From assembly GCA_964541675.1 (NCBI GenBank), contig CAZIPW010000003.1:22770-86769 (forward strand): DNA of 64,000 nt, in the 5' to 3' direction. The DNA is from an uncultured Verrucomicrobiota bacterium (GTDB lineage Bacteria; Verrucomicrobiota; Verrucomicrobiia; CAZIPW01). How positions within the stretch are numbered: the first letter of the stretch is position 1; each line of letters starts with the position of its first letter. Shown one piece after another: positions 34,902 to 54,528 of the stretch. The notes under the pieces were generated by a model. The model saw only the letters and a program-made list of their open reading frames with translations, ran no database searches and was not told the origin of the DNA. The translations under genes were made by a program, and so were the position numbers.

Positions 34902-34919
34902 TGATGGACTTGCCAGTTT

Positions 34920-35110: not shown

Positions 35111-35420
35111 GTCATATAATATGAACCAACATTGTATGACGAAATTGAAATATGATCTTACATATGCCCAATGTAGTATTGGCGTGCAGATATTCACAAG
35201 AAGTTCACACCGCTTTTTATCCATTATGTATAATATATCTTGGGTATCGACGGCAGCGGTGGTTGGCTTATGGAGTTTATTTCTTGCCAAGGCAAATCGA
35301 AAATTTCTCACATTACCGCCAGACTAACGCAGGTAGAGAACAACAATCTCTGTTTTGAGGCCAGCTGCCCGCCAGTTTTTTCAATCCTGATAGGGAGATG
35401 GTGCCATCGGAGGCATGACT

Positions 35421-37141: not shown

Positions 37142-38041
37142 TTACGCTGTCTTAAAGTGTATCGAACCGCAGAGGAAATTCAATAGAGTATCCCGATCCG
37201 TGCTGAGTGCCGCGATGGAACGGCTCTTTGTTTTCAGATATTCCGCCGCGGGATCCGATAGGATAGGGGAGATGCCCAGCGCGTACAATGCGCTCCACAA
37301 CTCGGCTTCGGCCGGGAACCTGGCCTGATAGCCTGTCGGCACAGCCCTGGGGTCAACAATAAGCGCTTTGGGAAAGACCGGCAGCTTGTGCTGCCTGTTG
37401 AAAATCCGGAAGTTCTCCGTAACGGTCAATATGGTCTGCAGATCACCCCATTCCTGAGGCGCCGTCAGGTCGTCCGGCGGGAGTATCGGATAAAGAGCCC
37501 GCTCGATGGTATGGATAAACTCCTCAACTTGCATCAGCTCCAATGCGACGGCGTCCCGTTTGGGGTCGGAGGCGTAGGTGGAAGAACGTGTGGATCCAAT
37601 CTTTACCGGGCGGTGCTCATATCCCTTCAGAATGATGGTAAAGTACGGTTCAGCTCCCAAAGACTCGTGTGGAATGAAAAGCTCGCTTTCCCCGCACCAC
37701 CAAACGTCTATTTTCCGGTAGGCGGAGAGCCGCAACCGCAGCCGTCTCTCATAATGTTCCCTTTCCAGCTTTTCGTAGGCGGTCAGCGCAGAAGTTGACA
37801 GCTGTTTGGCTAGCGTGTGACTCTCGGGACGCTGCGCCCGCCAGATATTCAGGAGAGCCTCGTCGTCCACAAAAAGCGCGGTAAAGACAAAGGGCTTGAA
37901 TTGTTCCAGAATAATATCCTCCGCCACCGCGCGGCGCAGGTCCTCCCTCTCAAAAAACTGTCCCAGAGGGGAAGTCTCCAGAAGATAATCAAGGGCAACG
38001 CGCTCGCCTTTTGCCAGAATGGAAGCTGGAACCATAATCAC
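37142..38041 (-). CDS. hypothetical protein (299 aa)
   Basis: Clean ORF co-directional with the 719-aa gene, 40 nt apart. Confidence 0.5.
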   Translation of the reverse strand: MIMVPASILAKGERVALDYLLETSPLGQFFEREDLRRAVAEDIILEQFKPFVFTALFVDDEALLNIWRAQRPESHTLAKQLSTSALTAYEKLEREHYERRLRLRLSAYRKIDVWWCGESELFIPHESLGAEPYFTIILKGYEHRPVKIGSTRSSTYASDPKRDAVALELMQVEEFIHTIERALYPILPPDDLTAPQEWGDLQTILTVTENFRIFNRQHKLPVFPKALIVDPRAVPTGYQARFPAEAELWSALYALGISPILSDPAAEYLKTKSRSIAALSTDRDTLLNFLCGSIHFKTA

Positions 38042-40240: not shown

Positions 40241-40872
40241 ATTATAGAAGGATAATATATTTTACGGGATATTCAACTATTGGATTATAGCACAGTGTGT
40301 GTTTTTACATCTAAATATTTGTTAAAATGTAAAATCAGCTTTCAGTTTGGCTCTCAAACCAACTGGGAGAAGGCTCAGGATAGGCATAATAGGCCATACG
40401 GTCGACGATGATGGTAAGGGGAGAGAGATGCACGGCATTAGTATGGTAGCCGGTTTTACGGCGTTCCAGGCGCGGGACCTGTCGGTTGACAAAAGAGACA
40501 TTGCGGCCGCTCTCGCGGATCTGGGAGCACCAGAAAGAATGCCACAGCTGTCCATTGAAGGATATTTTGACATGGTATATGATCGGTCGTGGCACGCGGG
40601 TTATTATAGCAGTTTGGATTGCGTTTTGGAAGATTAAAAGAGAGGTGGGATCTTTGTCTATAAATAAGATATACGTTGCCTTATAATCACTGTTATCTCA
40701 CTGTTTTACAGTGATGATTGGGCATCTTGTTCATCATTATCTAAGGCTGTGAAAATCCCGGGAAGAAGGGTTATAGGATTTATTGGACACATAAGATATA
40801 TTTGAGACTGCGGCGAAGGTACTGTGGACGAGGTGCAGACATTATAACAGATTTTGGGGAGAGGGTAGGGGT

Positions 40873-40905
40873 CAAACAAAAACCCCCGTGTCGGAGAGAC
40901 ACAGG
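40873..40905 (-). terminator. rho-independent terminator at the 3' end of the T4SS operon
   Basis: Minus strand: CCUGUGUC-UCUCC-GACACGGG hairpin followed by GGUUUUUGUUUG. Confidence 0.55.
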
Positions 40906-40929
40906 AGTTCCTAAAGAGCGGATCTTTAT

Positions 40930-41835
40930 TTATCTTACATTGATCGCAGAGGTCGGTGGAGGTAGATTTGGAGTTGGATAGGCACTACCTGCAGTGGCAG
41001 GCGCAGGCTGCATAACCGGGTATCCGGGAGCTTGCGCGTAGCTGTTTCCAGCCGCCGGGGCATAAGCAGTCGGAGCCGCCATTGCGCCTGGAGTGGTGTA
41101 ATTGATTACCTGAGAGGCGGCCGGCAACGGGGCAGAAGTCTGGTAACTTGGTTGGGCAGCGGAGGTCTGATAGGGGACTACCGGGGCCGGAATCTGATTG
41201 GAGGGTACCAGAGCTGAGGAGGGTACCAATATCCATCCCAGTGACTCGTCAAATATCGGTATCTCGCCGTTTTGTGCCATCGACCGGGCAAGAGGCTCCT
41301 GGGAACGTTCAACAAAACCGGTGACGCGCACCGAAGAGAGATCCTGTATCAAGGAAGCCTGTATGGGGCGCACGCTTGGACCAGCCGGGGTCTGGGCGGA
41401 TCCCGGAGCAACCATCGGATTGGCTGTATATCCATTTTTGGAGGGTACCGGAGGAACATTTTCCGACGGGACGTAGGCTCTCGTGGGATTGCGCAGAGCG
41501 TCGACGTTCCAGCCGCCGGGTTGCTTGACGACATACTTGACTGACGGGCCAAAAGCTTCACCTTTCTCATTCACATAGGCATCGAGATCCACTCTCACTA
41601 ATTGGGCATCGTTCCAGACCGGCAGAGGGCTTTGGTTGATGGTGGCAGGTTGTGGCTCATTGATGGCTGCGTTGGGGACCACGCTCAGGGCGGGCTGCAC
41701 GGGTGGTGGTGGCTCGCGACGGGCCTGGTAGACTTCTATGGCGGACGGACCCGGGAGTGTTCTGTGTTCCGGGAGGAAGGAACCGCAGCCGGCCAGCAGG
41801 CCGGTGAGGGCTATGAGAAGGAGAGGATAATACAT
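40930..41835 (-). CDS. Pro-rich lipoprotein (301 aa), T4SS-associated
   Basis: Lipobox LLAGC after the signal peptide; Pro/Ala/Gln-rich low-complexity C-terminus; last gene of the trb-like operon. Confidence 0.55.
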   Translation of the reverse strand: MYYPLLLIALTGLLAGCGSFLPEHRTLPGPSAIEVYQARREPPPPVQPALSVVPNAAINEPQPATINQSPLPVWNDAQLVRVDLDAYVNEKGEAFGPSVKYVVKQPGGWNVDALRNPTRAYVPSENVPPVPSKNGYTANPMVAPGSAQTPAGPSVRPIQASLIQDLSSVRVTGFVERSQEPLARSMAQNGEIPIFDESLGWILVPSSALVPSNQIPAPVVPYQTSAAQPSYQTSAPLPAASQVINYTTPGAMAAPTAYAPAAGNSYAQAPGYPVMQPAPATAGSAYPTPNLPPPTSAINVR

Positions 41836-41871
41836 GGAATTATGTACGGTTGGATTTTGATTAAATTTAGA

Positions 41872-43479
41872 TCATTCGACGTCTCCGGTCGGCCAGCTGA
41901 TATTTGGGCTTACGGAAGGCGGGGCCGCGGCGACTTGGTCTCCAGCGGAAGAGTTGCCGCCCTTGAGTGCCTGCATAAGCTGCTGTATCTGGGCGTTCTT
42001 GGCGGCCTGGGCTTGCTGCTGCGTCTGCTGCTGTTGCGCCTGCGCGGCTGCCTGGGCTTGCTGCTGCTGGGCTTGTGTTTGGCCCGCCGCGCCGCCAGCG
42101 CCAGCCTTGGTCGGGGCCGACGAGAATCCCGCTTTTTCAAGAGTGCCATTGGGGGCTATCGGATTATTCTCAAATCCCGGCAGAGCCACCTGTTTGCTAT
42201 CAAGGGAACCCGCTATATGGGCTTTGGTGAGATCCAGCGGGCTGCGCAACGAGACGTAGGCCTTTGTACCTATCGGCACAACGACTTTCTCTATATAGCG
42301 TCTATCGAGGCGCGTCTGTATTTTATTTGCCTGCTGGTTGATAAGGTCGGAAGCATTTGACAACGCGCTGGTGTACGTGGTGCCGCCATTGCTGCTGATG
42401 TGTTCGCTGCTAAAGCGCTGGGCGGTTGCCTGAGTCCATAGATCGATAAACTCTGCCACGAAGGGAGTCATCTGTATCGCGAAAGGCTGGGGTATGTAGT
42501 AACCCCGCACGCCGGAGGATAGATCCGAGGCGTCTTTCAAAAATCCGCTTATAGGCAGTTCTCTGCCGTCTGGATACAGAATGGTATCCACGTCGATCAT
42601 GACGCGGTCTTCAAAATTGGAACCTCCGGCTGTGCCAAGCAGTCGCGTACCGAAGGGAAGCTGTATTTTATGTTGGAAGATGACATTCTCTGCCACCGCC
42701 ATGACGACCATATCTTCCTGGTTGACAGTCTGGACCGTGGAGAGGATATAGACGGGGAATATGGTGCCGCGGGGCAGGAAATCGTTGGTATCAAAACCAG
42801 TCGGGATTGCGACCTTATCCTGGGTGGGCTTGGTATCGCGTTGGTAATCGTATATGGTCAGCCCTCCCGCGCTGATGCCAGAAGCCTGCGAACCACCGCT
42901 GCCGCCCTTGGATGAGCCAGAGGATAGTCCCTTGCCCGAAGCCCCTGTTTGTCCCCCGGGTCCGGGAGTTCCTTCCGCAGAGGACGTGACCGCCGCTTTC
43001 TTCTTCAGGGCTTCTATTTCGGCGCTGGCTTCAGCTTCTGCCTGTGCTTTTGCCTGTGCCACGGCCTCAGCCTTTTCGCGTTCGGCCTTTTCCTGGTTGC
43101 TGCGGAGGAGTTCCACGGTGTCTTGAATGGTATCCATGTCGTCAGGTGCGGCGGCTTTTTTGGGGGTATCGGCCGACTGTGAGTCGTCATGAAATTCCAC
43201 GCCTCGGGCGGACTTGATTTCCATGCCGATACCAGTGGCCTGTTTCACGTTGGTAGTTTCCTCGTGCGCCACGGCAGCTTTGGCTATGGTCTGTACACTG
43301 GTCGGATTGGAGGGGCCTGTGGCGGCTGGGCCTTCATTGCCAAACCCGGGTTCATGGGCGTGCTGGCGGATATTCCAGAGCACCACGCCTCCTATCATCA
43401 GCGCGCAGATGATAAGATATACTCCGGCGCCGAGCCTGGGCTCGCCCGTTTTCGGATCTTTGGTCTGAAAGAAACCCAT
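41872..43479 (-). CDS. trbI: TrbI/VirB10-family T4SS protein (535 aa)
   Basis: N-terminal TM helix VYLIICALMIGGVVLW, long Ala/Gln/Gly/Ser low-complexity linker, C-terminal beta-rich domain; position in the operon. Confidence 0.65.
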   Translation of the reverse strand: MGFFQTKDPKTGEPRLGAGVYLIICALMIGGVVLWNIRQHAHEPGFGNEGPAATGPSNPTSVQTIAKAAVAHEETTNVKQATGIGMEIKSARGVEFHDDSQSADTPKKAAAPDDMDTIQDTVELLRSNQEKAEREKAEAVAQAKAQAEAEASAEIEALKKKAAVTSSAEGTPGPGGQTGASGKGLSSGSSKGGSGGSQASGISAGGLTIYDYQRDTKPTQDKVAIPTGFDTNDFLPRGTIFPVYILSTVQTVNQEDMVVMAVAENVIFQHKIQLPFGTRLLGTAGGSNFEDRVMIDVDTILYPDGRELPISGFLKDASDLSSGVRGYYIPQPFAIQMTPFVAEFIDLWTQATAQRFSSEHISSNGGTTYTSALSNASDLINQQANKIQTRLDRRYIEKVVVPIGTKAYVSLRSPLDLTKAHIAGSLDSKQVALPGFENNPIAPNGTLEKAGFSSAPTKAGAGGAAGQTQAQQQQAQAAAQAQQQQTQQQAQAAKNAQIQQLMQALKGGNSSAGDQVAAAPPSVSPNISWPTGDVE

Positions 43480-43491
43480 ATTTTTATAGAA

Positions 43492-44364
43492 TTAGTGTAA
43501 AAGTGCTTTGACGGAGGAGGCTTCGGGAGGGAGCTTGAGTTCCCAGGGGTTATCCATGCTCAGGCGGTATCCCTGTATAAAGAGCCACACGGTTTCCAAC
43601 TGTCCCGGATAAACTGTGCCGTCGGTAGCCTGCATCCTGGCAGTGACAGGAATCTGTTTGTTGGCTATCCATACTTCGTACTGGCTGTCCTTGATATAGA
43701 AAGCCTTGTTCTGCTCATTGAGCCATTGGACCTTGAGGACAATCATGTCCTTGTCAACGAACTGATGCGCTTCCAGCAGATGTACCAGATTGCCGTTCCA
43801 CTGGTAGATCTTGTTGATGGGCCTCATCCGGTAGTAGGTCAGCTTGGAACGAAGGACCGGATCCAACTGGGCCTGCTCGATCTGATTGGTGGCCGCGATG
43901 ACGTCTATCTCGCCTGGCTTGAGCCTGGGAGCCTTGGCGAGCTGAGCCATATCGGCGTTGAGCTGCTCCTGGGGGAAGGTGAAAGTCCTGCGAAAGTCTA
44001 TTTTGCTTCCATCGGCGACTATGTTGATTGTGAAGAGATATATGGTGCCGTCCACCAGGATATTCATGTTGGTGCGTCCCTCCGATATCTTGGGGAAGAT
44101 ATCAATGATCTTCCGGCCGGGGTCGAATTTGACCTCGGCAATGGGGCTGCCGATTTTGATGGTCTCTATCTTTTTCTGTGTGAGAAATTCCAGAGAAGTG
44201 ACGACTCCCACGGCGCAATAGATATTCTCCACCTTGGTGGGCTCAAGGCAGATGGGAGTTTGCCCCGGAGGGGTCGCCGGTGCCGGTGGCAGAGCCGCGG
44301 GAGCCTCGGCCCATAGCTGCGCTGCAGCGAGCGTAAAATACAGCAGAAGAATATTCTTTTTCAT
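43492..44364 (-). CDS. trbG: TrbG/VirB9-family T4SS outer-membrane component (290 aa)
   Basis: Signal peptide; size and position between the VirB8-like and VirB10-like genes. Confidence 0.6.
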   Translation of the reverse strand: MKKNILLLYFTLAAAQLWAEAPAALPPAPATPPGQTPICLEPTKVENIYCAVGVVTSLEFLTQKKIETIKIGSPIAEVKFDPGRKIIDIFPKISEGRTNMNILVDGTIYLFTINIVADGSKIDFRRTFTFPQEQLNADMAQLAKAPRLKPGEIDVIAATNQIEQAQLDPVLRSKLTYYRMRPINKIYQWNGNLVHLLEAHQFVDKDMIVLKVQWLNEQNKAFYIKDSQYEVWIANKQIPVTARMQATDGTVYPGQLETVWLFIQGYRLSMDNPWELKLPPEASSVKALLH

Positions 44365-44392
44365 ACCTAGGTTCTTTTACGGATTAATGGGA

Positions 44393-45115
44393 TTATTTTT
44401 TAGATGTTTGTGGAGTCTTGGGAGTCGCCGGCGTCGTCTCCTGCGGTTTGGTCGCCTCTTCGATAAGAGCCTGGCGCTCTTTGTTGTAGTAGTCTTTGGG
44501 ATCCAGGGTGATAACGGTAGTGACGAACCACCCCATGGCATTTTCGTTGGTGGGTTCTCTCTTATCCACTGCCACCAGCAGATATACGGGGGTGTTCGAT
44601 ACGCCGTTCATGTCATTGACGTTCAGCAGCCCATGCACGCGATACACGCGGCGGGAGCTGTTTGCCCCCCCCATGATGTTCTCAAAATCCTGTATGTAGA
44701 ATGTCTGGGAGTATCCTTTTTTGCTCTTGCGGGCCCTGGCAAAATCATAATCGATCCTGGCCAGGCAGTAATCGTCGGTGTAGCTTCTCAGTTCCGGGAT
44801 GACGCCCTTTTCGGTGCGCGTGAACAGATAGGAGATGACGTGCCGGAGATGCTGGGTTAGGAACTCCTCTTTCTTCTGCGCGGCCTGCGGGGTGTCATCA
44901 TTGACGGGGGTGCCGAAGGCCGGCTCTCCCGTGGCTGTGTATGCCTCCACACGGGCCGTTTGCTGGGCCTTCCCGTACAGGCAGACAATCCCGACAAGAG
45001 TGAGTATCCAGATCACAATATGGCCGACCACTAGCAGAATAAAATTCCGCTTTACCTTGTCGGAGTGAAACCACTCATCCATGTCCGGCTTTGGATTTAT
45101 CCAATATGGGTTCAT
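44393..45115 (-). CDS. trbF: TrbF/VirB8-family bitopic T4SS protein (240 aa)
   Basis: N-terminal TM helix FILLVVGHIVIWILTLVGIVCLY plus a periplasmic domain of about 170 aa; operon position. Confidence 0.55.
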   Translation of the reverse strand: MNPYWINPKPDMDEWFHSDKVKRNFILLVVGHIVIWILTLVGIVCLYGKAQQTARVEAYTATGEPAFGTPVNDDTPQAAQKKEEFLTQHLRHVISYLFTRTEKGVIPELRSYTDDYCLARIDYDFARARKSKKGYSQTFYIQDFENIMGGANSSRRVYRVHGLLNVNDMNGVSNTPVYLLVAVDKREPTNENAMGWFVTTVITLDPKDYYNKERQALIEEATKPQETTPATPKTPQTSKK

Positions 45116-45942
45116 TTAAAAAACCTTTCGTTGTCGGCATCCCATTTTTTTACCGCGGACTCTCCGTGGACTTCATCGAGTTCCTCCAGGGTAAAGGGAA
45201 ATGGATTGATCTCGGTGACTGGCGTGCAGCGCAGTATCAATTTTGCGCGATATGGCTGCACACGATTAAGCGGATTCCCATTGATATCCTGGAGTGCCTG
45301 GGAAATGAAGCCATTGACGAAGACGGCCATGTTTCCCGTCTCGGGATTGGGAATGGGGGGCCGAACCATGGTGATGGAAAGGCTCTGGAACATCTTCATC
45401 TTCTCGATGGTGGAGCGGTCATGCTCCTCGCGCGCCTTGATTTTTTCCAGTATCTCCGGCTTTACCATGCCGGACAGGAGGTCAAGTGGCGTATCGGTGT
45501 GCGGATTGAACTGGTATAGATATTGCAAGGTCGTGGTAATGTAGTATTTTGTCTGATCCCACGTCATGCTGGGGTCGATCTTCTGGTAATCTGTCTGGTA
45601 ATACGCCTTCGCGGCCTCTTCCAAGCTGGGGGCTCCGACCTGCATATAAGTGGGGCGGGTAAAAGCCATATAGACTCCTCCCCAGACCAGCAGGGCAAAG
45701 GCAATATGCGCTATCAGGGAGATTTTGATCCACATATTCTGCTGGATAGACCATGAGAACTCAGCCAGATGGTGAAAGAGCGGACCTTTCTCATCAAGGG
45801 GCTTGGTAACGTCTCCATGCCGTGGCTGTGCCTCCGCTCCCTTGGGATTTTTAAGCGATTGAATGAAAGAGAGTAAACCGCTGTCAGGTTTGTCTGGCTG
45901 GGGCGCGGGAGTATCGGGAGTTGGTGTTGCGGGCTGCTCCAT
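45112..45942 (-). CDS. bitopic membrane protein (276 aa), possibly a second VirB8-like component
   Basis: TM helix ISLIAHIAFALLVWGGVYMAF followed by a soluble domain; 4-nt overlap with the downstream trbF-like gene. Confidence 0.4.
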   Translation of the reverse strand: MEQPATPTPDTPAPQPDKPDSGLLSFIQSLKNPKGAEAQPRHGDVTKPLDEKGPLFHHLAEFSWSIQQNMWIKISLIAHIAFALLVWGGVYMAFTRPTYMQVGAPSLEEAAKAYYQTDYQKIDPSMTWDQTKYYITTTLQYLYQFNPHTDTPLDLLSGMVKPEILEKIKAREEHDRSTIEKMKMFQSLSITMVRPPIPNPETGNMAVFVNGFISQALQDINGNPLNRVQPYRAKLILRCTPVTEINPFPFTLEELDEVHGESAVKKWDADNERFFK

Positions 45943-46025
45943 GATGGTACGTATGCCCTAACGGACGAAAAAGGAGCGATATTTAGAGTAGAAACCGAGA
46001 TTACAAACGAGACGGGAACCTTCTG

Positions 46026-48719: not shown

Positions 48720-49885
48720 GGCACCAAGCCGCCTTCGGCGTAGCCAGTCACAACACCCGATTGTTGTATTTTGGCGTCCATTATCTCTTTCTGGGCGGCG
48801 GCCTGGTCCCGAAGCTGCTCGCGTTGGGCGGAGTCAGAGCCCTGTTCCAGGGACTCCTCCTCATACTCTCCATCCCGGTTTTCGGCCATCATCTGCTGTT
48901 TGGCCAGATCGGTGACAGCGTCTGCGGTGTTATAGTTCTGTGATTGGCGGCGCACATCGCTGGCCTGTGCCTGTTTGGACATGGCATTGACGATAGCCGC
49001 GTTGCTTGCCTTGAATTGCGTGGAGGCTTTGGCGGCATCTTCGTTCAAATACGCGCCCATCATCACCTGCCCCATGGAGAGGGGCACCACGTTGACGGCG
49101 GCTGTGAAGTTGGCCTGGCCAGTGGCGTAGTTTGCATCGGATGGCTCAAGGAGTGCTCCATGTAGCAGACCCTTGGCCTGTACGCTGCCATCGCTGCCAT
49201 AGGTGTCATAGAAACCGGAGCTGCCAATTGTAAGATTGCCGCCGAAGGAACGGGACGTAAGGTTATGCACCTGATTTTTCATGTTTTTGAACATGGTGCC
49301 GTAATCGCAGACAGACCAACTGGGAAGGTTCATACCAAAGTTGGTGTTTATGTCAAAATCAAGACCGGCTGTAATACCGATATTGCCAAGCCCAAGATTG
49401 GGGGTCTTACAGGCGGTCAGGTCGCCCAGAATACCACCGAAAGTATTGCCAACAAGGTCGCTGAGTGCGCTAGCACCAGCGGTCTCCCAACCATTGACAT
49501 CCTTTACCGATTGAGTAAAATCAGTGGCGCCGGTTGTGTCACCCGAAAGAGCGGCCTTGATTAGATTATATGTATCTGAAGTGGTCAACTTCCCACTGGT
49601 ATTGGACAACACAGAGTTGTCATGGGCGCTGGCCAACTGGTTCTTCATGGCGTTGATCTCATCATATAAGTCGCCCAGTGATGTGTCATCGTATATATTA
49701 CTCAGTGTCCGATCGATACTTTGCAAGGAACTGGCTGCCTCACTTGTATTGCTCTCGACGTCGCTGTCGCTCACAGTACAGTATCCATCCGTAACGACGA
49801 CCGTAGCGCAGCAGTCCGCCTTGAGCGGTTGGGTCAGGGTCAGGGCCAGGGTGAGTAGGGTTGCTATGGATAGGGTTTTGTTCAT
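48716..49885 (-). CDS. trbJ: TrbJ/VirB5-family secreted T4SS protein (389 aa)
   Basis: Signal peptide MNKTLSIATLLTLALTLTQPLKA; helical soluble protein; operon position. Confidence 0.5.
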   Translation of the reverse strand: MNKTLSIATLLTLALTLTQPLKADCCATVVVTDGYCTVSDSDVESNTSEAASSLQSIDRTLSNIYDDTSLGDLYDEINAMKNQLASAHDNSVLSNTSGKLTTSDTYNLIKAALSGDTTGATDFTQSVKDVNGWETAGASALSDLVGNTFGGILGDLTACKTPNLGLGNIGITAGLDFDINTNFGMNLPSWSVCDYGTMFKNMKNQVHNLTSRSFGGNLTIGSSGFYDTYGSDGSVQAKGLLHGALLEPSDANYATGQANFTAAVNVVPLSMGQVMMGAYLNEDAAKASTQFKASNAAIVNAMSKQAQASDVRRQSQNYNTADAVTDLAKQQMMAENRDGEYEEESLEQGSDSAQREQLRDQAAAQKEIMDAKIQQSGVVTGYAEGGLVP

Positions 49886-49967
49886 GACCCGAAGTTTAGC
49901 ACGGATTTTACAGTATTGTCTATTAAATAGGAATTATTTACATATGTAAAAGACATAGCCGTGGGTT

Positions 49968-50513
49968 TTATCTGGGTGCTTCCTGGAAGTATATCTGGCG
50001 TGGCAGCTCTCTGGTGCCGTAGGCGACTCCATCATAGACCCCCGCGTCATAACGCACATCGCGCTCGCCGCCCTTCCAATGGCTGTCGACGCTGTCCGCG
50101 CCTGTCTGCTCAATCCAGTAATCCTGCATCAGCTTGGCGCGTTCCTCCCGCCTGGCCTCTTCTTTGGCCTCGGCGACCAACTGGGCCTCGTGCTTGTCGG
50201 TGTAATTCAAATAGGCCTGTGTGCCCAGCATACCAACAGCAGCTCCGGCTGGCGCGGCCCATTTGGCATTAAAGGCCTCTTCTCCGATGAGGGCTCCACC
50301 GGCAGTTCCCAATCCCATCATGGCCCATTCCGGGTAGCTCATGCTGGAAGAGGCGGCTGATATGGGGCTGGACATACAGCCGCTCTGCAGGAGCGTCATG
50401 GCGACAAGCGCGCAGAGGGCGGTAAATCCCAATCGGGGATTGGGTTGGCAGCCCCGATTTTCAACCCCGCCCTGAGGGAGGGGAAGGAGTGGGTGCTTCT
50501 GGTTGTTCTTCAT
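49968..50513 (-). CDS. small lipoprotein (181 aa), T4SS-associated (VirB7/TrbH-like or entry-exclusion candidate)
   Basis: Lipobox LLQSGC; lies between the trbE-like and trbJ-like genes. Confidence 0.45.
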   Translation of the reverse strand: MKNNQKHPLLPLPQGGVENRGCQPNPRLGFTALCALVAMTLLQSGCMSSPISAASSSMSYPEWAMMGLGTAGGALIGEEAFNAKWAAPAGAAVGMLGTQAYLNYTDKHEAQLVAEAKEEARREERAKLMQDYWIEQTGADSVDSHWKGGERDVRYDAGVYDGVAYGTRELPRQIYFQEAPR

Positions 50514-50515
50514 AA

Positions 50516-53074
50516 TTAGAATACTCCCTTCGGATAATCCTGGGAAAACTTTAGGATGGCTTCCACGTGGCTCATTCCGCTTCCCACGAAATCGTAGATT
50601 TTCTTCAGATCGGTCTGCTTGGTGGTGGCCATCGCGTACAGGAGAGGATGGGCCTGGTTGATGCAGATGGTCGAGCGCGTGCCGCCGTTGCTGAGCTTCT
50701 GCCGCAGCAGGAACTGGGAGAAATTTCCGACGGAGGTCTGAAGCGTGCCGATGATCTGCTGCTCCGTCTCGGTCAGCTCGAACTCCTTGGCCACCATCTT
50801 GACCGACTCCGAATTGTTCTGGCGCAGGATCAGCAGATGCGAGATGTTGGCAAGAATCGCGCTCTTGTTCGCCATGCTGGAGAACTCCTCGATTGATTGC
50901 GAGATGGCGATTGTCGAGAATCCTTTTTTTCTCAAAGCGCGGAAAGCGTAGACCACGAAATTGGCCAGCACCGGATCCGCGAGCAGCGACCAGGCCTCGT
51001 CGATGTAAAGGAACTTGACGTCTCCGGGGAAATGATCGCCGAGCTTGATGATCTGCGCGATGATGGTGGAAAACGCGATTGGGCAGAGGTCCTTGTTGTC
51101 CTTGAAGCTGGTCAGGTCGAAGATGATGCAGGGGTTGTCGAAGGACTGCTGGGTGGGGCCGTCCGCCAGGTTGCGAAAACGTCCGTTGGGTCCGCAGAAG
51201 GGGATGAGCCGCCGGGAGAGCAGCTCACCGTCCTTGGAATGTCTCTGCAGTCCCAGGCGGAAATCCGAGATATAAAACGGTTCGCCCCTCCGGGCGCCGA
51301 TCAGGTCGTTCAAAACCTCCTCTAGAATACCCATCTGCACGCGCGAGAGGGAACCCTCGGCCGGGTCCGTCATCATTTTCTCCAGATAGGCCAGAGTGGC
51401 GTCCACCACGTCGGGATCCGGTTTCTCCACGGCAAGGGCGTCAAAGGGGTTGATCCGGTTGACGTCGTCGGCGAGGTTCATGTCGATATAAGTGCCCCTC
51501 ATCACCTGGCAGATGTTCCGGTAGGAGCCGCCGATATCGATGAAAATCTGGCGCGCCTTTGCCTTTTTCATCTGGCAGGCGATGGTGGACACCAGAAAGC
51601 TCTTTCCGGTGCCCGAGCCCCCGATGATAAGGCCGTTGTAGTTGGTAAACTGCCGCGAGTCGTGCGGGTAGAAGTTGTAGATGGAGTCCTCGGTGGTGGC
51701 GAAGATGACGCCGATGTCGTGTTCGAGGTTGGAGTCCAAACCGCACAGCGGCAACATGGAGATGACCTGCGCGGTGTTGTAACTGTTGACGCGGTAGCGG
51801 TCCTCGTCGCGGGTCCACCCGGGCTGACTGCTTCTCCAATACGGCCAGGCGGCGTGTACCTCGTCAGAAAGCACCATACCTTCGGCTTCTTCGCCCATCT
51901 CCTTGATGCGCCGGCAGGTGTCATCGACCTCCTTGAGGGTCTCCCCCCACACGTGCATGATGTGGGTGGCCGTCCAGTATTTCTCGACATTGCGGCCCAG
52001 GTCCATCAATTCCTGCTGGATGTCCTCCAGAATGGCTTTCAGCGAGATGTCCTTGGCGATCCTGGCCTCTACCATCCTCATCTGGTCTTCCAGTTGCTTC
52101 TTGCGCTTGACGATGTCTCCGTGCTGGATGTTGACCACGAGCCGGAAGTTTTTGAGCCATGACCTCAGACAGATGGCTTGGAACTGCGCGAAGAAGATGG
52201 TGGTGGGCGGGGTCCGCAAAGTGATGATCTTGTGGAAGAGCCCGTCCGTCTTGAAGGTGCCGATGGGGGCCAGAACGCCTTTCGTATCCCAGATGAAGGT
52301 GTCCTTGATGTAATGTTCCGTGGCCGGCAGTATCTCGCCTGGCGAATAGGCCCGCGGCTCGCCGCCCTTTTCCCAAGAGAGGGGATTGTTGTACTTGTAG
52401 AGAAGCTCCACCAGACCGTCCGTGCTGAGCGCCTCCGGCCTCATGCGGCAGGTGGAAAGGGTGTCCTGGAAGCTGCCCGCTATCGCCAGCATCTCATCGC
52501 GGGCGTCATTGTACTCCTTGAGCTCGTACTGCGCGTGCGAGACAGACCCCGTGAAATCCAGGGCAAAGTCGGTGAGAAACTTGTCAAGGCTGCCGCTTTT
52601 CTGGTAGTTCTCCTCGGCGTGGATGGCGGCTTTGGTCCGCTTGGTCAGGTCGTTGGGATGCACCGTGCACTTGCGGACCAGCATGACATAGCCTTCAAAA
52701 AATCTCATGTCTCGGTGGCTCAGGCGGTCCATGATGTTTTTTGTGTACGCCTGCACGTACGTATGGATGATCTCGTTGTCTATCTTGGGCGGGTCTATGA
52801 TCTTGGAGACTTCCTTTTGCCGGGAGTGCTGGAAAAAAATAAATTGTACGTCGAAATGGTCGGGCAGAGTGTTGAAGGCCGACTTGAGGGAACCAAAAAT
52901 GCCTTCCTTGTCCGTCTCGGAAAGGGTGTATAGATTTGGGAAAAGCACCCGCCAGCCCATGGACATGGAGAGATCCTTGTTGACGAGCATACCGTCCTCC
53001 AAAAAACGCGTCGGCAGCTCGCGGTCGATGATGTCGCCGCCGAGGACTTCATTGCGTTGGTAATACTGTGCCAT
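50516..53074 (-). CDS. trbE: TrbE/VirB4-family T4SS ATPase (852 aa)
   Basis: Walker A GGSGTGKSFLV, Walker B/DEAW-like region LYIDEAWSLL; size typical of VirB4. Confidence 0.9.
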   Translation of the reverse strand: MAQYYQRNEVLGGDIIDRELPTRFLEDGMLVNKDLSMSMGWRVLFPNLYTLSETDKEGIFGSLKSAFNTLPDHFDVQFIFFQHSRQKEVSKIIDPPKIDNEIIHTYVQAYTKNIMDRLSHRDMRFFEGYVMLVRKCTVHPNDLTKRTKAAIHAEENYQKSGSLDKFLTDFALDFTGSVSHAQYELKEYNDARDEMLAIAGSFQDTLSTCRMRPEALSTDGLVELLYKYNNPLSWEKGGEPRAYSPGEILPATEHYIKDTFIWDTKGVLAPIGTFKTDGLFHKIITLRTPPTTIFFAQFQAICLRSWLKNFRLVVNIQHGDIVKRKKQLEDQMRMVEARIAKDISLKAILEDIQQELMDLGRNVEKYWTATHIMHVWGETLKEVDDTCRRIKEMGEEAEGMVLSDEVHAAWPYWRSSQPGWTRDEDRYRVNSYNTAQVISMLPLCGLDSNLEHDIGVIFATTEDSIYNFYPHDSRQFTNYNGLIIGGSGTGKSFLVSTIACQMKKAKARQIFIDIGGSYRNICQVMRGTYIDMNLADDVNRINPFDALAVEKPDPDVVDATLAYLEKMMTDPAEGSLSRVQMGILEEVLNDLIGARRGEPFYISDFRLGLQRHSKDGELLSRRLIPFCGPNGRFRNLADGPTQQSFDNPCIIFDLTSFKDNKDLCPIAFSTIIAQIIKLGDHFPGDVKFLYIDEAWSLLADPVLANFVVYAFRALRKKGFSTIAISQSIEEFSSMANKSAILANISHLLILRQNNSESVKMVAKEFELTETEQQIIGTLQTSVGNFSQFLLRQKLSNGGTRSTICINQAHPLLYAMATTKQTDLKKIYDFVGSGMSHVEAILKFSQDYPKGVF

Positions 53075-53076
53075 GC

Positions 53077-53364
53077 TTATTTGAGTTTATAGGGGGGGAG
53101 GGGATCCAGCTTGCCCGGTCGCATGACCTTGGGCGTCCAGAGGGAATTAAAGAGATGGGCGTCGTATCCGTCAGGTTTGCCCACACGCAAAAGGATCAGA
53201 TAAGACATATGCAGGAGCATATAGCCCAGCATCAGGAACACTGATTTGAACAGACAGAAACACGCCACAGACGCTATCAGTCCCACGAAAAAGTCAAGGA
53301 TTGTGAAGATGCCAAAGTAGTATACTTTGCCGTTGGTCTGTCTGTTGTAGTGAAAAGTCAACAT
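53077..53364 (-). CDS. trbD: TrbD/VirB3-family small membrane protein (95 aa)
   Basis: Two hydrophobic helices; immediately upstream of the VirB4 gene. Confidence 0.55.
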   Translation of the reverse strand: MLTFHYNRQTNGKVYYFGIFTILDFFVGLIASVACFCLFKSVFLMLGYMLLHMSYLILLRVGKPDGYDAHLFNSLWTPKVMRPGKLDPLPPYKLK

Positions 53365-53369
53365 ACGTG

Positions 53370-53900
53370 CTAATATGCGGAAGAGGAATGCTTGGCGACA
53401 GAGGGAGTGATGGAGTCGAAGTTATCAATGATGCTGTCCATGCGCTTGAGCATGGAACGGATGCGCTCTTTGTCCACGGTGTCCTGATCGTATATGAGGA
53501 TCAGGTCGTTGTATATCTTGCGCAGCTCTTTTGAGGAGTCTTGCAGGGAAGCGGTGGCGCGCGGCATATATATAAAGATGGGGACTTCAGCAGTTACGGG
53601 CGCGCCGTTGACGTCGAAGGTGATCTTCTTGGTGATATCCATGACGCGCAGTTCATACCCCGGCAACTGCAGCGGTACAACAGAACTTACGTCGGCCCCT
53701 CCCATCTGCAGGGGTCTGGAAAGCCGGGGGTCGGCGACAGCCACCGGCAGCGTCTGCGGGTAACCCGGCGCGTAAGAGCTCTGGCAATATGGCGTGAGGG
53801 GAGGAGGAGGAGCCACTGGCACCGGCTGGTATCCGTACGCGGATTGCGCCTGGAGGTTCGCGGTGATGGCCGCGAAAGCTAGTAAAAATATACGCCTCAT
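53370..53900 (-). CDS. secreted Pro-rich protein (176 aa), first gene of the T4SS operon
   Basis: Signal peptide MRRIFLLAFAAITANLQAQS; Pro-rich N-terminal half. Confidence 0.45.
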   Translation of the reverse strand: MRRIFLLAFAAITANLQAQSAYGYQPVPVAPPPPLTPYCQSSYAPGYPQTLPVAVADPRLSRPLQMGGADVSSVVPLQLPGYELRVMDITKKITFDVNGAPVTAEVPIFIYMPRATASLQDSSKELRKIYNDLILIYDQDTVDKERIRSMLKRMDSIIDNFDSITPSVAKHSSSAY

Positions 53901-54009
53901 AACAGACCCCTCTACGGCCCAATTCTGAAATCTATTTAGCTGTTTTTTACGCCTTCACCCATGACTATGGTTTTTACAAATTTCTAAAATCTTGTCATTT
54001 AATTGTAAA

Positions 54010-54052
54010 AAAGAGTAGTATATAATATATACTTGTGTTATAATGGATTTAG
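54010..54052 (+). promoter_or_regulatory. putative extended -10 promoter for trbC in the divergent AT-rich intergenic region
   Basis: TGTTATAAT at 54037-54045, about 38 nt upstream of the trbC start; the divergent region 53901-54082 probably also carries the minus-strand T4SS operon promoter. Confidence 0.4.
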
Positions 54053-54082
54053 CCGTACATAAAACGCTAGTATTTCAAAACT

Positions 54083-54475
54083 ATGAAAGCATTCACAAGA
54101 TCTCTTAAACCCGCGCTGCTCACGGTGGCGCTCTTCCTCTTCGTCGCTGTCACGAACGGCGCTTGGGCTACCACTCCCACCAATGCAAGTGCCATCATGG
54201 GATCCTCGGCCGTTGGCAGTCTAAGCCTTTCGATAGGAGGTAGTAATTCTGCGGCAGGTAGCGCTGTTATCAGTCAGGTCTATAACCTGATCCGTTTTGC
54301 CTATATGTTCTTCTACGCGATCGCCGTGCTTCTGGTCGCGCAGGCTTGGATGCAGTTCAAGCAGCAGAAGTATGAGGTGATGTTCGCCAGCATGGGCGCG
54401 GCTTTGGGACTCTTCCTTACCCCAGCGATCATCGACTTTATGCACGGCTTGGGCCAGTCGACAGCCAGTAACTAG
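54083..54475 (+). CDS. trbC: TrbC/VirB2-family conjugative pilin precursor (130 aa)
   Basis: Long signal peptide, then two hydrophobic helices (YMFFYAIAVLLVAQAW and VMFASMGAALGLFLTPAI) separated by a short polar loop; this is the typical VirB2 topology. Confidence 0.6.
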   Translation: MKAFTRSLKPALLTVALFLFVAVTNGAWATTPTNASAIMGSSAVGSLSLSIGGSNSAAGSAVISQVYNLIRFAYMFFYAIAVLLVAQAWMQFKQQKYEVMFASMGAALGLFLTPAIIDFMHGLGQSTASN

Positions 54476-54497: not shown

Positions 54498-54528
54498 ACG
54501 CTCCGCTTGTCAGCGGGGCGTTTTTTTT
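54498..54528 (+). terminator. rho-independent terminator after trbC
   Basis: ACGCTCCGC-TTGTCA-GCGGGGCGT hairpin (one G-U pair) followed by T8. Confidence 0.65.

What the first reader, a model, noticed from the sequence alone, without database searches (positions are those of the whole stretch)
40930..54475. Trb/VirB-type T4SS operon without visible VirB11, VirD4 or relaxase, and with two VirB8-like genes
Gene order D-E-(lipoprotein)-J-L-(276-aa bitopic)-F-G-I-(lipoprotein) on the minus strand matches Ti/RP4 trb operons. trbC is split off on the opposite strand with its own promoter and terminator. No TrbB/VirB11, TraG/VirD4 coupling protein or MOB relaxase occurs within 25 kb on either side. 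The only other traffic ATPase nearby is a GspE-type enzyme. Either the DNA-processing genes are distal, or this is a non-conjugative T4SS (effector or uptake type).
Basis: partly seen in the sequence, partly recalled or inferred. Interest (0 to 1): 0.6.

Follow-up and report, generated by a model that had tools for sequence, protein, structure and literature searches.

The report
Divergent T4SS beside plasmid-type origin
This is a real, complete but very divergent type IV secretion machine in a peat-bog Verrucomicrobiota replicon; it sits in one conserved block with plasmid-type maintenance genes but has no coupling ATPase or relaxase nearby, so its cargo is still unknown.

Summary
The operon is real. 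VirB4, VirB9 and VirB10 are supported by sequence models. One VirB8 is supported by predicted fold. The VirB2, VirB3, VirB5 and VirB6 roles and the second "VirB8" rest only on position and membrane topology.

It is not Trb/VirB-type by its ATPase. VirB4 scores best against F-type TraC, below every curated cut-off, and is at most 26% identical to any plasmid VirB4.

The family is rare: about 10 relatives among 5.8 billion proteins, all from Verrucomicrobiota-like metagenome contigs. The same gene order is kept in five lineages (VirB4 40-81% identical).

No VirD4, relaxase or VirB11 lies from 47 kb left to 17 kb right of the operon, nor within about 10 kb in four relatives.

The conserved block continues leftwards: an 86-aa gene, a hypervariable 719-aa protein, a 299-aa gene, an ArdC-like gene, a remote Rep_3-like initiator and ParA. 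A clean GC-skew minimum lies at about 33.5 kb.

Best reading: this is the mating-pair-formation module of a plasmid-type replicon, with DNA-processing genes distal. A repurposed, coupling-protein-independent T4SS is nearly as likely. I rate it a new variant of a known kind, of moderate interest.

The parts
54083..54475 (+). 130-aa VirB2/TrbC-like pilin candidate, transcribed divergently from the operon
   Evidence: It has a signal peptide (..NGAWA|T) and two hydrophobic helices separated by a KQQKYE loop. It lies on the opposite strand in all five lineages, at 56-70% identity in close relatives and 20-35% in L010. There is no Pfam, NCBIfam or PDB sequence hit, so the assignment rests on topology and position only.
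53901..54082 (.). AT-rich divergent intergenic region between the pilin gene and the operon
   Evidence: Two sigma-70-like matches lie on the plus strand at 53961-54021. That is no more than chance: 2 found, 1.6 expected. Sequence.
54504..54528 (+). Terminator-like hairpin followed by T8, after the pilin gene
   Evidence: CGCTTGTCAGCGGGGCG followed by TTTTTTTT. This is a pattern match only.
53370..53900 (-). 176-aa secreted protein, first gene of the operon, role unknown
   Evidence: It has a signal peptide. It is conserved in all relatives (46-65% identity; 32% over 79 aa in L010) directly upstream of the VirB3-like gene. No family hit.
53077..53364 (-). 95-aa VirB3/TraL-like inner-membrane protein
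   Evidence: The size, the hydrophobic hairpin and the position directly 5' of VirB4 all fit. The motifs YNRQxN and GYDxHxF are invariant in five lineages. One of the sequences scanned gives a weak Pfam TraL hit (E 0.0078); the tool does not say which one.
50516..53074 (-). 852-aa VirB4-family ATPase, the only ATPase of the block
   Evidence: Pfam P-loop_TraG 3.5e-30. NCBIfam scores: TraC-F-type 215 bits, VirB4_CagE 133, CD1110 94, Bac_Flav TraG 81, TrbE 75; all are below cut-off. PDB: 4ag5 at 2.8e-8 and TrwK at 5e-4. Walker A is GGSGTGKS at residue 485.
49968..50513 (-). 181-aa small envelope protein with a lipobox-like LLQSGC
   Evidence: Sequence. The L010 orthologue hits Pfam Gly-zipper_YMGG. 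It is 58-66% identical in close relatives.
48716..49885 (-). 389-aa secreted protein in the VirB5/TrbJ position, fast-evolving
   Evidence: It has a signal peptide. It is only 24-33% identical where VirB4 is 71-76% identical. No family hit, so the role is inferred from position.
46026..48719 (-). 897-aa polytopic VirB6/TrbL-like protein
   Evidence: It has an N-terminal signal-like segment, six further hydrophobic segments, and a roughly 350-aa periplasmic region between residues 173 and 523. It is conserved at 31-35% in close relatives. No TrbL or VirB6 model hit.
45112..45942 (-). 276-aa bitopic protein, possible second VirB8-like subunit
   Evidence: It has a single TM at residues 76-94 and a 180-aa periplasmic domain. 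It is conserved in five lineages. Its hhalign match to the 240-aa family is colinear but weak (P 0.009, probability 4%). There is no PDB sequence hit and the AF2 single-sequence model is unusable.
44393..45115 (-). 240-aa bitopic VirB8-fold protein
   Evidence: AF2 with an 8-sequence alignment gave pLDDT 72.9. Foldseek against the PDB returned CagV at 1.6e-4 (TM 0.66), then Rickettsia VirB8, TrwG, IcmL-like, DotI, TraM and TraE. Gene callers start it 11 codons later, giving 229 aa.
43492..44364 (-). 290-aa VirB9-like outer-membrane core subunit
   Evidence: Pfam CagX 3.1e-9 (37.4 bits against a cut-off of 34.2). NCBIfam VirB9 1.3e-7. It has a signal peptide.
41872..43479 (-). 535-aa VirB10/TrbI-like core subunit
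   Evidence: Pfam TrbI 5.8e-9 (36.5 bits against a cut-off of 35). It has an N-terminal TM at residues 16-34 and low-complexity linkers.
40930..41835 (-). 301-aa lipoprotein with a canonical LAGC lipobox, possibly a VirB7/TrbH analogue
   Evidence: Lipobox found. It is 67-71% identical in close relatives. No family hit.
40335..40595 (-). 86-aa conserved cytoplasmic protein following the operon
   Evidence: It is 68-78% identical in L016 and L017, in the same position and on the same strand. The overlapping plus-strand ORF 40347-40637 is less conserved.
38081..40240 (-). 719-aa hypervariable hydrophilic cytoplasmic protein
   Evidence: It has no signal peptide, TM or Walker A and no Pfam or PHROG hit. 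The proteins in the same position in relatives (757, 871 and 601 aa) share only a short C-terminal stretch with it (E 3e-4).
37142..38041 (-). 299-aa highly conserved cytoplasmic protein of unknown function
   Evidence: It is 68-69% identical in L016 and L017. No Pfam, NCBIfam, PHROG, PDB or plasmid hit.
36149..36955 (+). 268-aa ArdC-like anti-restriction / zincin protein
   Evidence: Pfam MPTase-PolyVal 5.9e-7 (30 bits against a cut-off of 27.5) plus a weak ArdcN match. PHROG anti-restriction protein 5.9e-13. The L016 orthologue is 44% identical and syntenic.
35421..36023 (-). 200-aa conserved protein of unknown function
   Evidence: It is 43% identical and syntenic in L016. No family hit.
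33465..34901 (-). 478-aa remote Rep_3-like (winged-helix) replication-initiator candidate
   Evidence: The protein itself has no direct hit. It has 52 homologues among 1.84 billion representatives. Of the 40 I aligned, 6 hit Pfam Rep3_N (best 4e-5) and 1 hits RPA. The L016 orthologue is 45-60% identical and syntenic.
31296..31883 (+). 195-aa ParA-type partition ATPase
   Evidence: Pfam CbiA 7e-16 and AAA_31 6e-13. NCBIfam ParA_partition 6e-27, which at 94 bits is below the cut-off of 180.
31016..31223 (.). AT-rich (36% GC) array of direct and inverted ~20-nt repeats upstream of parA
   Evidence: These could be operator, iteron or parS-like sites; function is not shown.
34991..35118 (.). AT-rich repeat array upstream of the Rep-like gene
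   Evidence: Four copies of about 20 nt (ATATATGTAACTAGTATATA-like) in a region of 37% GC.

Best explanation
The region encodes a complete, selectively maintained type IV secretion apparatus of an unclassified lineage. It is the mating-pair-formation (MPF) module of a plasmid-type replicon or element in bog and peat Verrucomicrobiota.

Inferred anatomy:
- An outer-membrane core built from the VirB9-like and VirB10-like proteins plus one or two lipoproteins.
- An inner-membrane platform built from the VirB3-like protein, VirB4, a polytopic VirB6-like protein and one or two bitopic VirB8-like proteins.
- A VirB2-like pilin expressed from a divergent gene.
- A fast-evolving secreted protein in the VirB5 position.

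VirB4 is the only ATPase in the block. Assembly would therefore be VirB4-driven, as in F-type and ComB systems, which also work without VirB11.

The operon forms one conserved block with an 86-aa gene, a hypervariable 719-aa cytoplasmic protein, a conserved 299-aa protein, an ArdC-like protein, a remote Rep_3-like initiator and ParA. This block sits at a GC-skew minimum that looks like a replication origin.

I therefore read the system as conjugation machinery. Its DNA-processing half (relaxase, coupling protein, oriT) would be encoded at a distance on the same replicon, as in IncP Tra1/Tra2 and Ti tra/trb.

Shown: gene content, conservation, the absence of a coupling protein and relaxase in cis, and the plasmid-type neighbours.
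Inferred: the subunit roles of VirB2, B3, B5, B6 and the 276-aa protein; function as a DNA-transfer channel; the existence of a distal DNA-processing locus.
For: T4SS identity:
- VirB4, VirB9 and VirB10 match sequence models.
- The 240-aa protein has a VirB8 fold.
- The remaining subunits have the expected membrane topologies.

Maintenance by selection:
- All genes are intact and in the same order in five lineages whose VirB4 is 40-81% identical.

Plasmid ancestry or context:
- The ArdC-like gene is syntenic in relatives.
- Homologues of the 478-aa protein hit Rep3_N and RPA.
- ParA is present.
- AT-rich repeat arrays flank these genes.
- The cumulative GC skew over 77.5 kb is V-shaped, with its minimum at about 33.5 kb between parA and the rep-like gene.
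- The skew is strand-wide rather than a coding-strand effect.

Precedents for a split layout:
- The coupling-protein gene is often near the relaxase and far from virB4 (PMC12102498, PMC4027160).
- The nearest more distant VirB4 relative (P0011, 25% identical) does have a VirD4 next to it.
Against: - No coupling protein, relaxase or VirB11 was found from 47 kb left to 17 kb right of the operon. This rests on Pfam hits and on Walker-A motif counts.
- None was found within about 10 kb of the system in four other lineages. A consistent absence across lineages is what a coupling-protein-independent system would show.
- The contig also carries genes that look chromosomal, namely iPGM, a sigma factor, flagellins and T2SS clusters. 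The plasmid reading therefore needs a megaplasmid, a chromid or an integrated element.
- The Rep_3 assignment is only transitive. The window protein itself hits no model.
- No integrase, tRNA or att-like boundary was found.
Confidence: 0.42

Rival explanations
1. This is a repurposed, coupling-protein-independent T4SS. The machine is powered by VirB4 alone and no longer conjugates. It would serve one of several other roles:
- DNA uptake or release, as ComB does.
- Export of a periplasmic substrate, as Ptl does.
- Pilus-mediated adhesion.
- Contact-dependent delivery, for example of the hypervariable 719-aa protein.

It might act together with the type IV pilus-like module that is linked to it in relatives.
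For: - No VirD4, relaxase or VirB11 lies next to the system in any of the five lineages.
- The component set (B2, B3, B4, B6, B8, B9, B10 and no second ATPase) is the ComB pattern. ComB is described as a DNA-import T4SS in PMC4027160; its component list is from my own knowledge.
- In four of the five lineages the VirB2-like gene is followed on the same strand by a PilC/GspF-like gene. Pseudopilin genes and a PilT-family ATPase lie next door. These linked genes diverge in step with VirB4.
- T4SS divergence (VirB4 76%) is similar to that of the neighbouring T2SS genes (T2SSF 71%). That is compatible with vertical co-inheritance.
- A hypervariable cytoplasmic protein sits inside a conserved operon.
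Against: - The conserved ArdC-like, Rep_3-like and ParA neighbours point to a plasmid backbone.
- Nearly all protein-secreting T4SSs still need a coupling protein. The known exceptions, Ptl and Brucella VirB, keep VirB11 (PMC12102498 for the exceptions; the VirB11 point is from my own knowledge).
- The window lineage itself lacks the linked pilus-like module.
- There is no sequence similarity to ComB proteins.
Confidence: 0.35
2. This is a decaying remnant of an integrated conjugative element. It has lost its relaxase and coupling protein and is no longer functional.
For: Relaxase, coupling protein and integrase are all absent. The flanks differ between lineages.
Against: - Every one of about 12 structural genes is intact and syntenic in five lineages, down to 40% VirB4 identity.
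- Invariant Walker A and catalytic columns are retained in VirB4.
- No frameshifts or truncations were seen.
Confidence: 0.06
3. This is an ordinary Trb/VirB (MPF_T) operon of the Ti/RP4 kind, that merely lacks trbB.
For: The backbone order B3-B4-B5-B6-B8-B9-B10 fits, and there are CagX and TrbI domain hits.
Against: - VirB4 scores 215 bits on F-type TraC but only 75 on TrbE and 133 on VirB4_CagE.
- The best plasmid hits are TraC.
- No TrbC, D, F, J or L model and no VirB2, 3, 5, 6 or 8 model is matched.
- A VirB-like gene order with a distant VirB4 is already known for MPF_C (PMC4027160).
Confidence: 0.05

Closest known systems
F-type (MPF_F) T4SS, TraC/TraL of F-like plasmids
   Same: - The VirB4 scores best on the TraC-F-type model, over its full length (residues 57-845; 215 bits).
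- The best plasmid matches are TraC or TrhC at 23-26% identity.
- Relatives carry weak PF11130 TraC_F_IV hits.
- There is one weak TraL hit.
- Neither system has VirB11.
   Different: - The score is far below the TraC cut-off of 567 bits.
- None of the F-specific proteins (TraW, TraU, TraN, TraF, TraH, TrbC) is present.
- The gene order is VirB-like, not F-like.
- There is no TraD coupling protein.
VirB/Trb (MPF_T) systems of Agrobacterium Ti and RP4
   Same: - The backbone gene order is the same.
- VirB9 (CagX) and VirB10 (TrbI) domains are present.
- A VirB8 fold is present.
- The apparatus lies next to replication genes, as trb lies next to repABC on Ti plasmids (my own knowledge).
- Those plasmids split their MPF and DNA-processing modules.
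   Different: - The ATPase is not TrbE- or VirB4-like by score.
- There is no TrbB/VirB11.
- No sequence match to TrbC, D, J, L or F.
- There is an extra 176-aa secreted protein and a second bitopic protein.
Helicobacter pylori ComB DNA-uptake T4SS
   Same: VirB4 is the only dedicated ATPase. There is no coupling protein and no relaxase. The component set B2, B3, B4, B6, B8, B9, B10 matches.
   Different: There is no detectable sequence relationship. The system here has a VirB5-position protein and plasmid-type neighbours. DNA uptake is untested.
Bordetella Ptl and Brucella VirB (coupling-protein-less effector T4SSs)
   Same: They lack a coupling protein (PMC12102498).
   Different: They are MPF_T systems and keep VirB11 (my own knowledge). 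No toxin or effector genes of those kinds are present here.
Systems with duplicated VirB8-like subunits (Legionella DotI/DotJ, Rickettsiales RvhB8 paralogues)
   Same: There are two adjacent bitopic proteins in the VirB8 position. DotI and Rickettsia VirB8 are among the fold matches for the 240-aa protein.
   Different: The second copy (276 aa) is not verified as having a VirB8 fold. The two proteins are not detectably similar in sequence.
IncI R64 (MPF_I), a T4SS with a type IV thin pilus and the PilT/DotB-like ATPase TraJ
   Same: Relatives of this locus pair the T4SS with a PilC-like gene, pseudopilin genes and a PilT-family ATPase. The second-best NCBIfam model for that ATPase is plasmid TraJ (154-170 bits).
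   Different: The ATPase scores higher as PilT (262-280 bits). The VirB4 is not TraU-like. The window lineage lacks the linked module.
MPF_C (cyanobacterial) T4SS
   Same: It is a VirB-like compact locus combined with a VirB4 that is far from MPF_T (PMC4027160).
   Different: Not tested here, as no MPF_C models were available. No cyanobacterial plasmid appeared among the best tblastn hits.

Membership tests
Type IV secretion system (any class) | A VirB4-family ATPase with T4SS genes clustered around it | tested here: met
   P-loop_TraG 3.5e-30, TraC-F-type 1.6e-63 and VirB4_CagE 9e-39. VirB9, VirB10 and a VirB8-fold protein lie in the same operon.
MPF_T (VirB/Trb) | A VirB4/TrbE ATPase reaching the family cut-offs | tested here: not met
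   TrbE 75 bits (cut-off 1020). VirB4_CagE 133 bits (cut-off 643). PRK13898 VirB4 28 bits.
MPF_T (VirB/Trb) | A VirB11/TrbB ATPase in the locus | tested here: not met
   There is none in the operon. The nearest T2SSE-family ATPase (28285-29367) is PilT-type: 261 bits against 57 for VirB11.
MPF_T (VirB/Trb) | VirB9 and VirB10 core domains | tested here: met
   CagX 37.4 bits (cut-off 34.2) and TrbI 36.5 bits (cut-off 35).
MPF_T (VirB/Trb) | Sequence matches to VirB2/TrbC, VirB3/TrbD, VirB5/TrbJ, VirB6/TrbL and VirB8/TrbF | tested here: not met
   No Pfam or NCBIfam hits for the window proteins or their orthologues. Only a VirB8 fold, for the 240-aa protein.
MPF_F (F-type) | A TraC-type VirB4 | tested here: inconclusive
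   This is the best-scoring model (215 bits, full length), but it is below the cut-off of 567. Identity to plasmid TraC is 23-26%. No phylogeny was done.
MPF_F (F-type) | The F-specific proteins TraW, TraU, TraN, TraF, TraH and TrbC | tested here: not met
   No such Pfam hit in any ORF of the window region that was scanned.
Self-transmissible conjugative system | A relaxase (MOB) with the MPF | tested here: not met
   No relaxase-family Pfam hit from about 47 kb left to 17 kb right of the operon, nor in relatives' loci. The rest of the genome could not be searched.
Self-transmissible conjugative system | A coupling protein (VirD4 or TcpA) | tested here: not met
   The only Walker-A proteins are VirB4, ParA, two GspE/PilB-type ATPases and a PilT-type ATPase in the window, plus UvrD in L010. 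No TrwB/T4SS-DNA_transf hit.
Self-transmissible conjugative system | Relaxase or coupling protein elsewhere in the same genome or replicon; an oriT | not testable with these tools
ComB-like DNA-uptake T4SS | VirB4 as the sole ATPase, with no coupling protein or relaxase | tested here: met
ComB-like DNA-uptake T4SS | DNA import activity, or homology to ComB proteins | not tested
   No ComB-specific models were available. Function needs experiment.
Rep_3 (iteron-type) plasmid replicon | An initiator with a Rep_3 winged-helix domain | tested here: inconclusive
   The window protein has no hit. Of its 40 aligned homologues, 6 hit Rep3_N (best 4e-5) and 1 hits RPA.
Rep_3 (iteron-type) plasmid replicon | An origin next to rep/par genes (skew switch, AT-rich repeats) | tested here: met
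   The cumulative GC-skew minimum lies at about 33.5 kb over a 77.5-kb span and is strand-wide. AT-rich repeat arrays are present. Whether the repeats are iterons is not shown.
ArdC anti-restriction family | An ArdC N-terminal domain plus a zincin metalloprotease domain | tested here: inconclusive
   MPTase-PolyVal 30 bits (cut-off 27.5). ArdcN only 14.3 bits (cut-off 22.6). PHROG anti-restriction protein 5.9e-13 over residues 52-265.
VirB8 family (second copy, 276 aa) | An NTF2-like periplasmic domain on a bitopic protein | tested here: inconclusive
   The bitopic topology fits. The hhalign match to the 240-aa family has P 0.009 and probability 4%. AF2 gave pLDDT 46. No PDB hit.

The most novel reading that the evidence does not exclude
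This is a previously unclassified MPF lineage confined to Verrucomicrobiota. It would work without any coupling protein, relaxase or VirB11, being powered by VirB4 alone.

It would have been domesticated on a chromid-like replicon and be functionally coupled to a compact type IV pilus-like module. In most lineages the VirB2-like pilin is co-transcribed with a PilC-like platform protein.

Its role would be DNA uptake or release, or contact-dependent delivery of the hypervariable 600-870-aa cytoplasmic protein encoded in the operon.
Probability: 0.25. Interest if true: 0.7.

Novelty: new variant of a known kind. Interest (0 to 1): 0.45.

Why it matters
T4SS diversity is classified into eight MPF classes, drawn almost entirely from Proteobacteria, Firmicutes, Bacteroidetes and Cyanobacteria. 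Neither my literature searches nor the protein-family libraries turned up anything describing a Verrucomicrobiota system like this one.

If the machine really works without a coupling protein, it would be a rare case alongside ComB, Ptl and Brucella VirB. It would also be a second VirB4-only design.

If it is conjugative, it marks an uncharacterised plasmid or chromid lineage that moves genes in peat and bog Verrucomicrobiota. Either way, it supplies sequences for building a new MPF profile set.

The practical stakes are modest. The hosts are uncultured and the family is rare.

Tried and rejected
- Exact-product look-ups of the right-hand T2SSE gene with two different start codons found nothing. 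I extended the right flank with the HTH gene instead.
An alignment-based query would have been the better choice.
- The metagenome scan with the VirB4 alignment found one short extra locus.
- A concatenated query of six small T4SS proteins returned nothing, because the candidate list saturated. That wasted one homologue search.
As a result the 276-aa protein could only be folded as a single sequence, and the model was unusable.
- Profile searches against PDB sequences gave nothing meaningful for the 276-aa and 240-aa families, the VirB6-, VirB3- and VirB2-like families, the 299-aa family and the 478-aa family.
- tblastn of the 478-aa and 299-aa proteins against 72,556 plasmids found no match.
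- The 719-aa, 299-aa or 478-aa protein as a hidden coupling protein: rejected, because none has a Walker A motif.
- The 478-aa protein as a relaxase: rejected in favour of a Rep_3-like initiator.
- The PilT-type ATPase as VirB11: rejected. pilT_fam scores 261 bits against 57 for VirB11, and the gene lies inside a T2SS/T4P operon. It is also only 39-40% identical to the T4SS-linked PilT-like genes of relatives, so it is a paralogue of them.
- tRNA and Rfam scans of the window found nothing.
- Literature searches found no description of a Verrucomicrobiota T4SS of this kind.
- I did not build a VirB4 tree. No reference set or tree software was at hand, and the branch lengths would have made a crude tree unreliable.

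Full report
**Source and relatives.** The window is identical to part of a 99.5-kb JGI metagenome contig, Ga0455670_0001849. The same sequence occurs in several ENA, JGI and Logan assemblies. The only named relative is an uncultured Verrucomicrobiota MAG, whose VirB4 is 76% identical. The VirB4 family is rare:
- 11 proteins among 5.8 billion in the word-indexed search;
- one locus in 185,579 species genomes;
- one short locus in the JGI metagenome contigs.

**The observation.** ORF listing shows eleven tightly packed minus-strand genes at 40930-53900 and a divergent 130-aa gene at 54083-54475. Three components have direct sequence support.
- VirB4 (50516-53074): Pfam P-loop_TraG 3.5e-30; NCBIfam TraC-F-type 1.6e-63; PDB VirB4 chains 4ag5 and TrwK.
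- VirB9 (43492-44364): Pfam CagX, above its gathering score.
- VirB10 (41872-43479): Pfam TrbI, above its gathering score.

The 240-aa bitopic protein has no sequence match. An AlphaFold model built on eight homologues (pLDDT 72.9) finds VirB8-family structures as its best PDB matches: CagV, Rickettsia VirB8, TrwG, DotI, TraM and pKM101 TraE. The best E-value is 1.6e-4 with a target TM-score of 0.66.

The other assignments rest on size, membrane topology, position and conservation. No Pfam, NCBIfam or PDB profile supports them, apart from one weak TraL hit (E 0.0078). These are:
- the VirB2-like pilin;
- the VirB3-like 95-aa protein;
- the VirB5-position 389-aa protein;
- the VirB6-like 897-aa polytopic protein;
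- the two lipoproteins.

The second "VirB8-like" protein (276 aa) is bitopic and sits in the right place. Its only link to the 240-aa family is a colinear but weak profile-profile alignment (P 0.009, probability 4%). Its single-sequence AF2 model was unusable (pLDDT 46). The claim of two VirB8-like genes is therefore half verified.

**Which kind of T4SS.** The ATPase is not. NCBIfam scores are:

| Model | Bits |
|---|---|
| TraC-F-type (full length) | 215 |
| VirB4_CagE | 133 |
| CD1110 | 94 |
| Bacteroidetes TraG | 81 |
| TrbE | 75 |
| MPF_G TraC | 27 |

All are far below the curated cut-offs. Against 72,556 plasmids the best E-values belong to F-type TraC or TrhC, at 23-26% identity. F-specific accessory proteins are absent. 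The system therefore fits no established MPF class by the tests I could run. A VirB-like locus combined with a distant VirB4 has a precedent in MPF_C (PMC4027160). Because F-type and several other classes have no VirB11, its absence here says little. The informative absences are the coupling protein and the relaxase.

**Absence of DNA-processing genes.**
- Every sizeable ORF from 15.8 kb to 63.9 kb was scanned against Pfam.
- The contig's precomputed tables cover a further 6.4 kb to the left and 7 kb to the right.
- No relaxase family and no TrwB/T4SS-DNA_transf domain appears anywhere in that range.
- A Walker-A scan of all ORFs finds only VirB4, ParA, two GspE/PilB-type ATPases (17735-19948 and 61088-63400) and a PilT-family ATPase (28285-29367).
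It scores 261 bits as PilT against 57 as VirB11 and lies inside a T2SS/T4P-like operon, so I do not count it as VirB11.
- In four other lineages no further P-loop protein lies within about 10 kb of the system, apart from a PilT-family ATPase and, in one lineage, a UvrD helicase.
- The closest more distant VirB4 (25% identical) does have a VirD4 beside it.

**Conservation.** Orthologous operons were found in L005/L016, L014, L015/L017 and L010, with VirB4 76, 71, 76 and 40% identical to the window's.
- They keep every gene and the opposite-strand pilin.
- All reading frames are intact, and VirB4 keeps its invariant catalytic columns.
- This argues for a functional machine and against a relic.
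- The VirB5-position protein (24-33% identical) and the VirB6-like protein (31-35%) evolve much faster than VirB4.

**The block is larger than the finding.** In relatives, the same genes follow the operon on its downstream side. The table lists the window versions, running leftwards in window coordinates.

| Gene (window coordinates) | Conservation and evidence |
|---|---|
| 86-aa gene (40335-40595) | 68-78% identical |
| Large hydrophilic cytoplasmic protein (719 aa here) | Hypervariable; counterparts of 757, 871 and 601 aa share only a short C-terminal stretch |
| 299-aa protein | 68-69% identical; no detectable family |
| ArdC-like protein (36149-36955) | Pfam MPTase-PolyVal plus weak ArdcN; PHROG anti-restriction 6e-13 |
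| 200-aa protein | 43% identical in L016 |
| 478-aa protein (33465-34901) | 45-60% identical in L016; see below |

The 478-aa protein has no direct hit. A full HMMER search of 1.84 billion representatives found 52 homologues. Of the 40 I aligned, six match Pfam Rep3_N and one matches RPA. It is therefore probably a winged-helix replication initiator, not a relaxase.

A ParA gene lies at 31296-31883. AT-rich repeat arrays precede both parA and the rep-like gene.

The cumulative GC skew over 77.5 kb of the contig is a clean V with its minimum at about 33.5 kb, between parA and rep. Third-codon-position skews show that the switch is strand-wide and not a coding-strand effect. This is the signature of a replication origin served by plasmid-type genes. 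The contig is therefore a megaplasmid or chromid, or it carries an integrated plasmid backbone. It also holds iPGM, a sigma factor, five flagellin genes and several T2SS/T4P clusters. No integrase, tRNA or Rfam element was found.

**A second, unexpected linkage.** In four of the five lineages the VirB2-like gene is followed on the same strand by a PilC/GspF-like gene.
- Five to eight pseudopilin genes and a 334-336-aa PilT-family ATPase lie next to it.
- These linked genes are orthologous among the relatives and diverge in step with VirB4.
- The window lineage has a GT-C-like membrane protein at this position instead. Its own PilT-like gene is a paralogue, 39-40% identical to all of the linked ones.

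**Interpretation.** With high confidence, this is a functional and highly divergent T4SS apparatus in which VirB4 is the only dedicated ATPase.

What it transports is not shown. I favour a mating-pair-formation module of a plasmid-type replicon whose relaxase and coupling protein lie elsewhere on that replicon (0.42).
- The ArdC-like, Rep_3-like and ParA genes and the origin-like site point to a plasmid backbone.
- Split Tra1/Tra2 and tra/trb layouts are well known.
- Coupling-protein genes tend to sit with the relaxase rather than with virB4 (PMC4027160, PMC12102498).

Nearly as likely (0.35) is a repurposed system that needs no coupling protein. ComB shows that a VirB4-only T4SS can import DNA. 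Ptl and Brucella VirB show that a coupling protein can be dispensable (PMC4027160, PMC12102498). The consistent absence of a coupling protein and relaxase across five lineages fits this reading. So do the pilus-module linkage and the hypervariable cytoplasmic protein.

A non-functional remnant (0.06) and an ordinary MPF_T operon (0.05) are unlikely.

**Novelty and interest.** I found no literature on such a system. It is a T4SS, which is a known kind, but of a lineage that meets none of the class definitions I could test and that has an unusual gene complement and context. I rate it a new variant of a known kind, with interest 0.45. The decisive tests are:
- whole-replicon searches for a coupling protein and relaxase;
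- closing the replicon;
- a reference VirB4 phylogeny;
- better structure predictions for the unassigned proteins.

Noticed in passing
window 31000-35200 (skew minimum at about 33.5 kb): Replication-origin-like signature. The cumulative GC skew over 77.5 kb is V-shaped, and the switch is strand-wide. The minimum lies between ParA and a remote Rep_3-like initiator, both flanked by AT-rich repeat arrays. This suggests a plasmid- or chromid-type replicon that also carries flagellin, T2SS and iPGM genes.
   Followed up: partly
window 38081-40240; L016 14326-16599; L017 14534-17149; L014 22033 onwards: A hypervariable large cytoplasmic protein (719, 757, 871 or 601 aa) sits between well conserved 86-aa and 299-aa genes directly after the T4SS operon. 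Only a short C-terminal stretch is shared. It could be cargo, an effector or an anti-defence protein.
   Followed up: partly
L005 2500-6200; L010 2000-8800; L014 1-8900; L015 1-8900: In relatives the VirB2-like pilin gene is followed on the same strand by a PilC/GspF-like gene. Five to eight pseudopilin genes and a PilT-family ATPase lie next to it. These genes diverge in step with VirB4. The window lineage lacks this module at that position.
   Followed up: partly
window 54629-55924: The gene after the pilin in this lineage is a polytopic GT-C-like protein (weak GT87 and PIG-U hits). The pilin has a Ser/Thr/Gly-rich segment after its signal peptide, so pilin glycosylation is conceivable. This was not tested.
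   Followed up: no
window 13960-29367; 61088-64000 continuing in L006 to about 71 kb; L018 16097-17749: There are at least three T2SS/T4P-like gene sets on one contig, with GspE/PilB-type ATPases of 737, 770 and 550 aa and two secretins. The 737/770-aa ATPases and the two secretins are paralogue pairs at 25-29% identity.
   Followed up: partly
window 5189-11033, 7155-8786, 57963-59807, 12040-13965, 55951-57945: Five flagellin paralogues lie together with an MptE/Maf-like gene. A second MptE-like gene and paralogous 641-aa and 664-aa polytopic proteins lie near the T4SS. This looks like duplicated surface-filament glycosylation gear.
   Followed up: no
L018 18040-19464; L019 8215-9645; L020 7919-9616 (left of the window): A strain-variable slot. 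One gene of 474 aa in one assembly is replaced by genes of 263 and 199 aa in another and by a 565-aa gene in a third, within otherwise identical contigs.
   Followed up: no
window 40335-40637: The JGI gene call is a 96-aa ORF on the plus strand. Cross-lineage conservation (68-78% against 41-52%) favours the overlapping 86-aa ORF on the minus strand.
   Followed up: yes
window 60214-61068: An HTH_31 + DUF5753 regulator sits between the MptE-like gene and the right-hand T2SS/T4P cluster. From my own knowledge, this architecture is mostly seen in Actinobacteria.
   Followed up: no
window 40000-54000 compared with the flanks: The T4SS operon has a higher G+C content (52-59%) than the flanks (44-51%). 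Third-position GC reaches 81% in virB4. The cause could be codon usage, expression level or foreign origin; this is not resolved.
   Followed up: no
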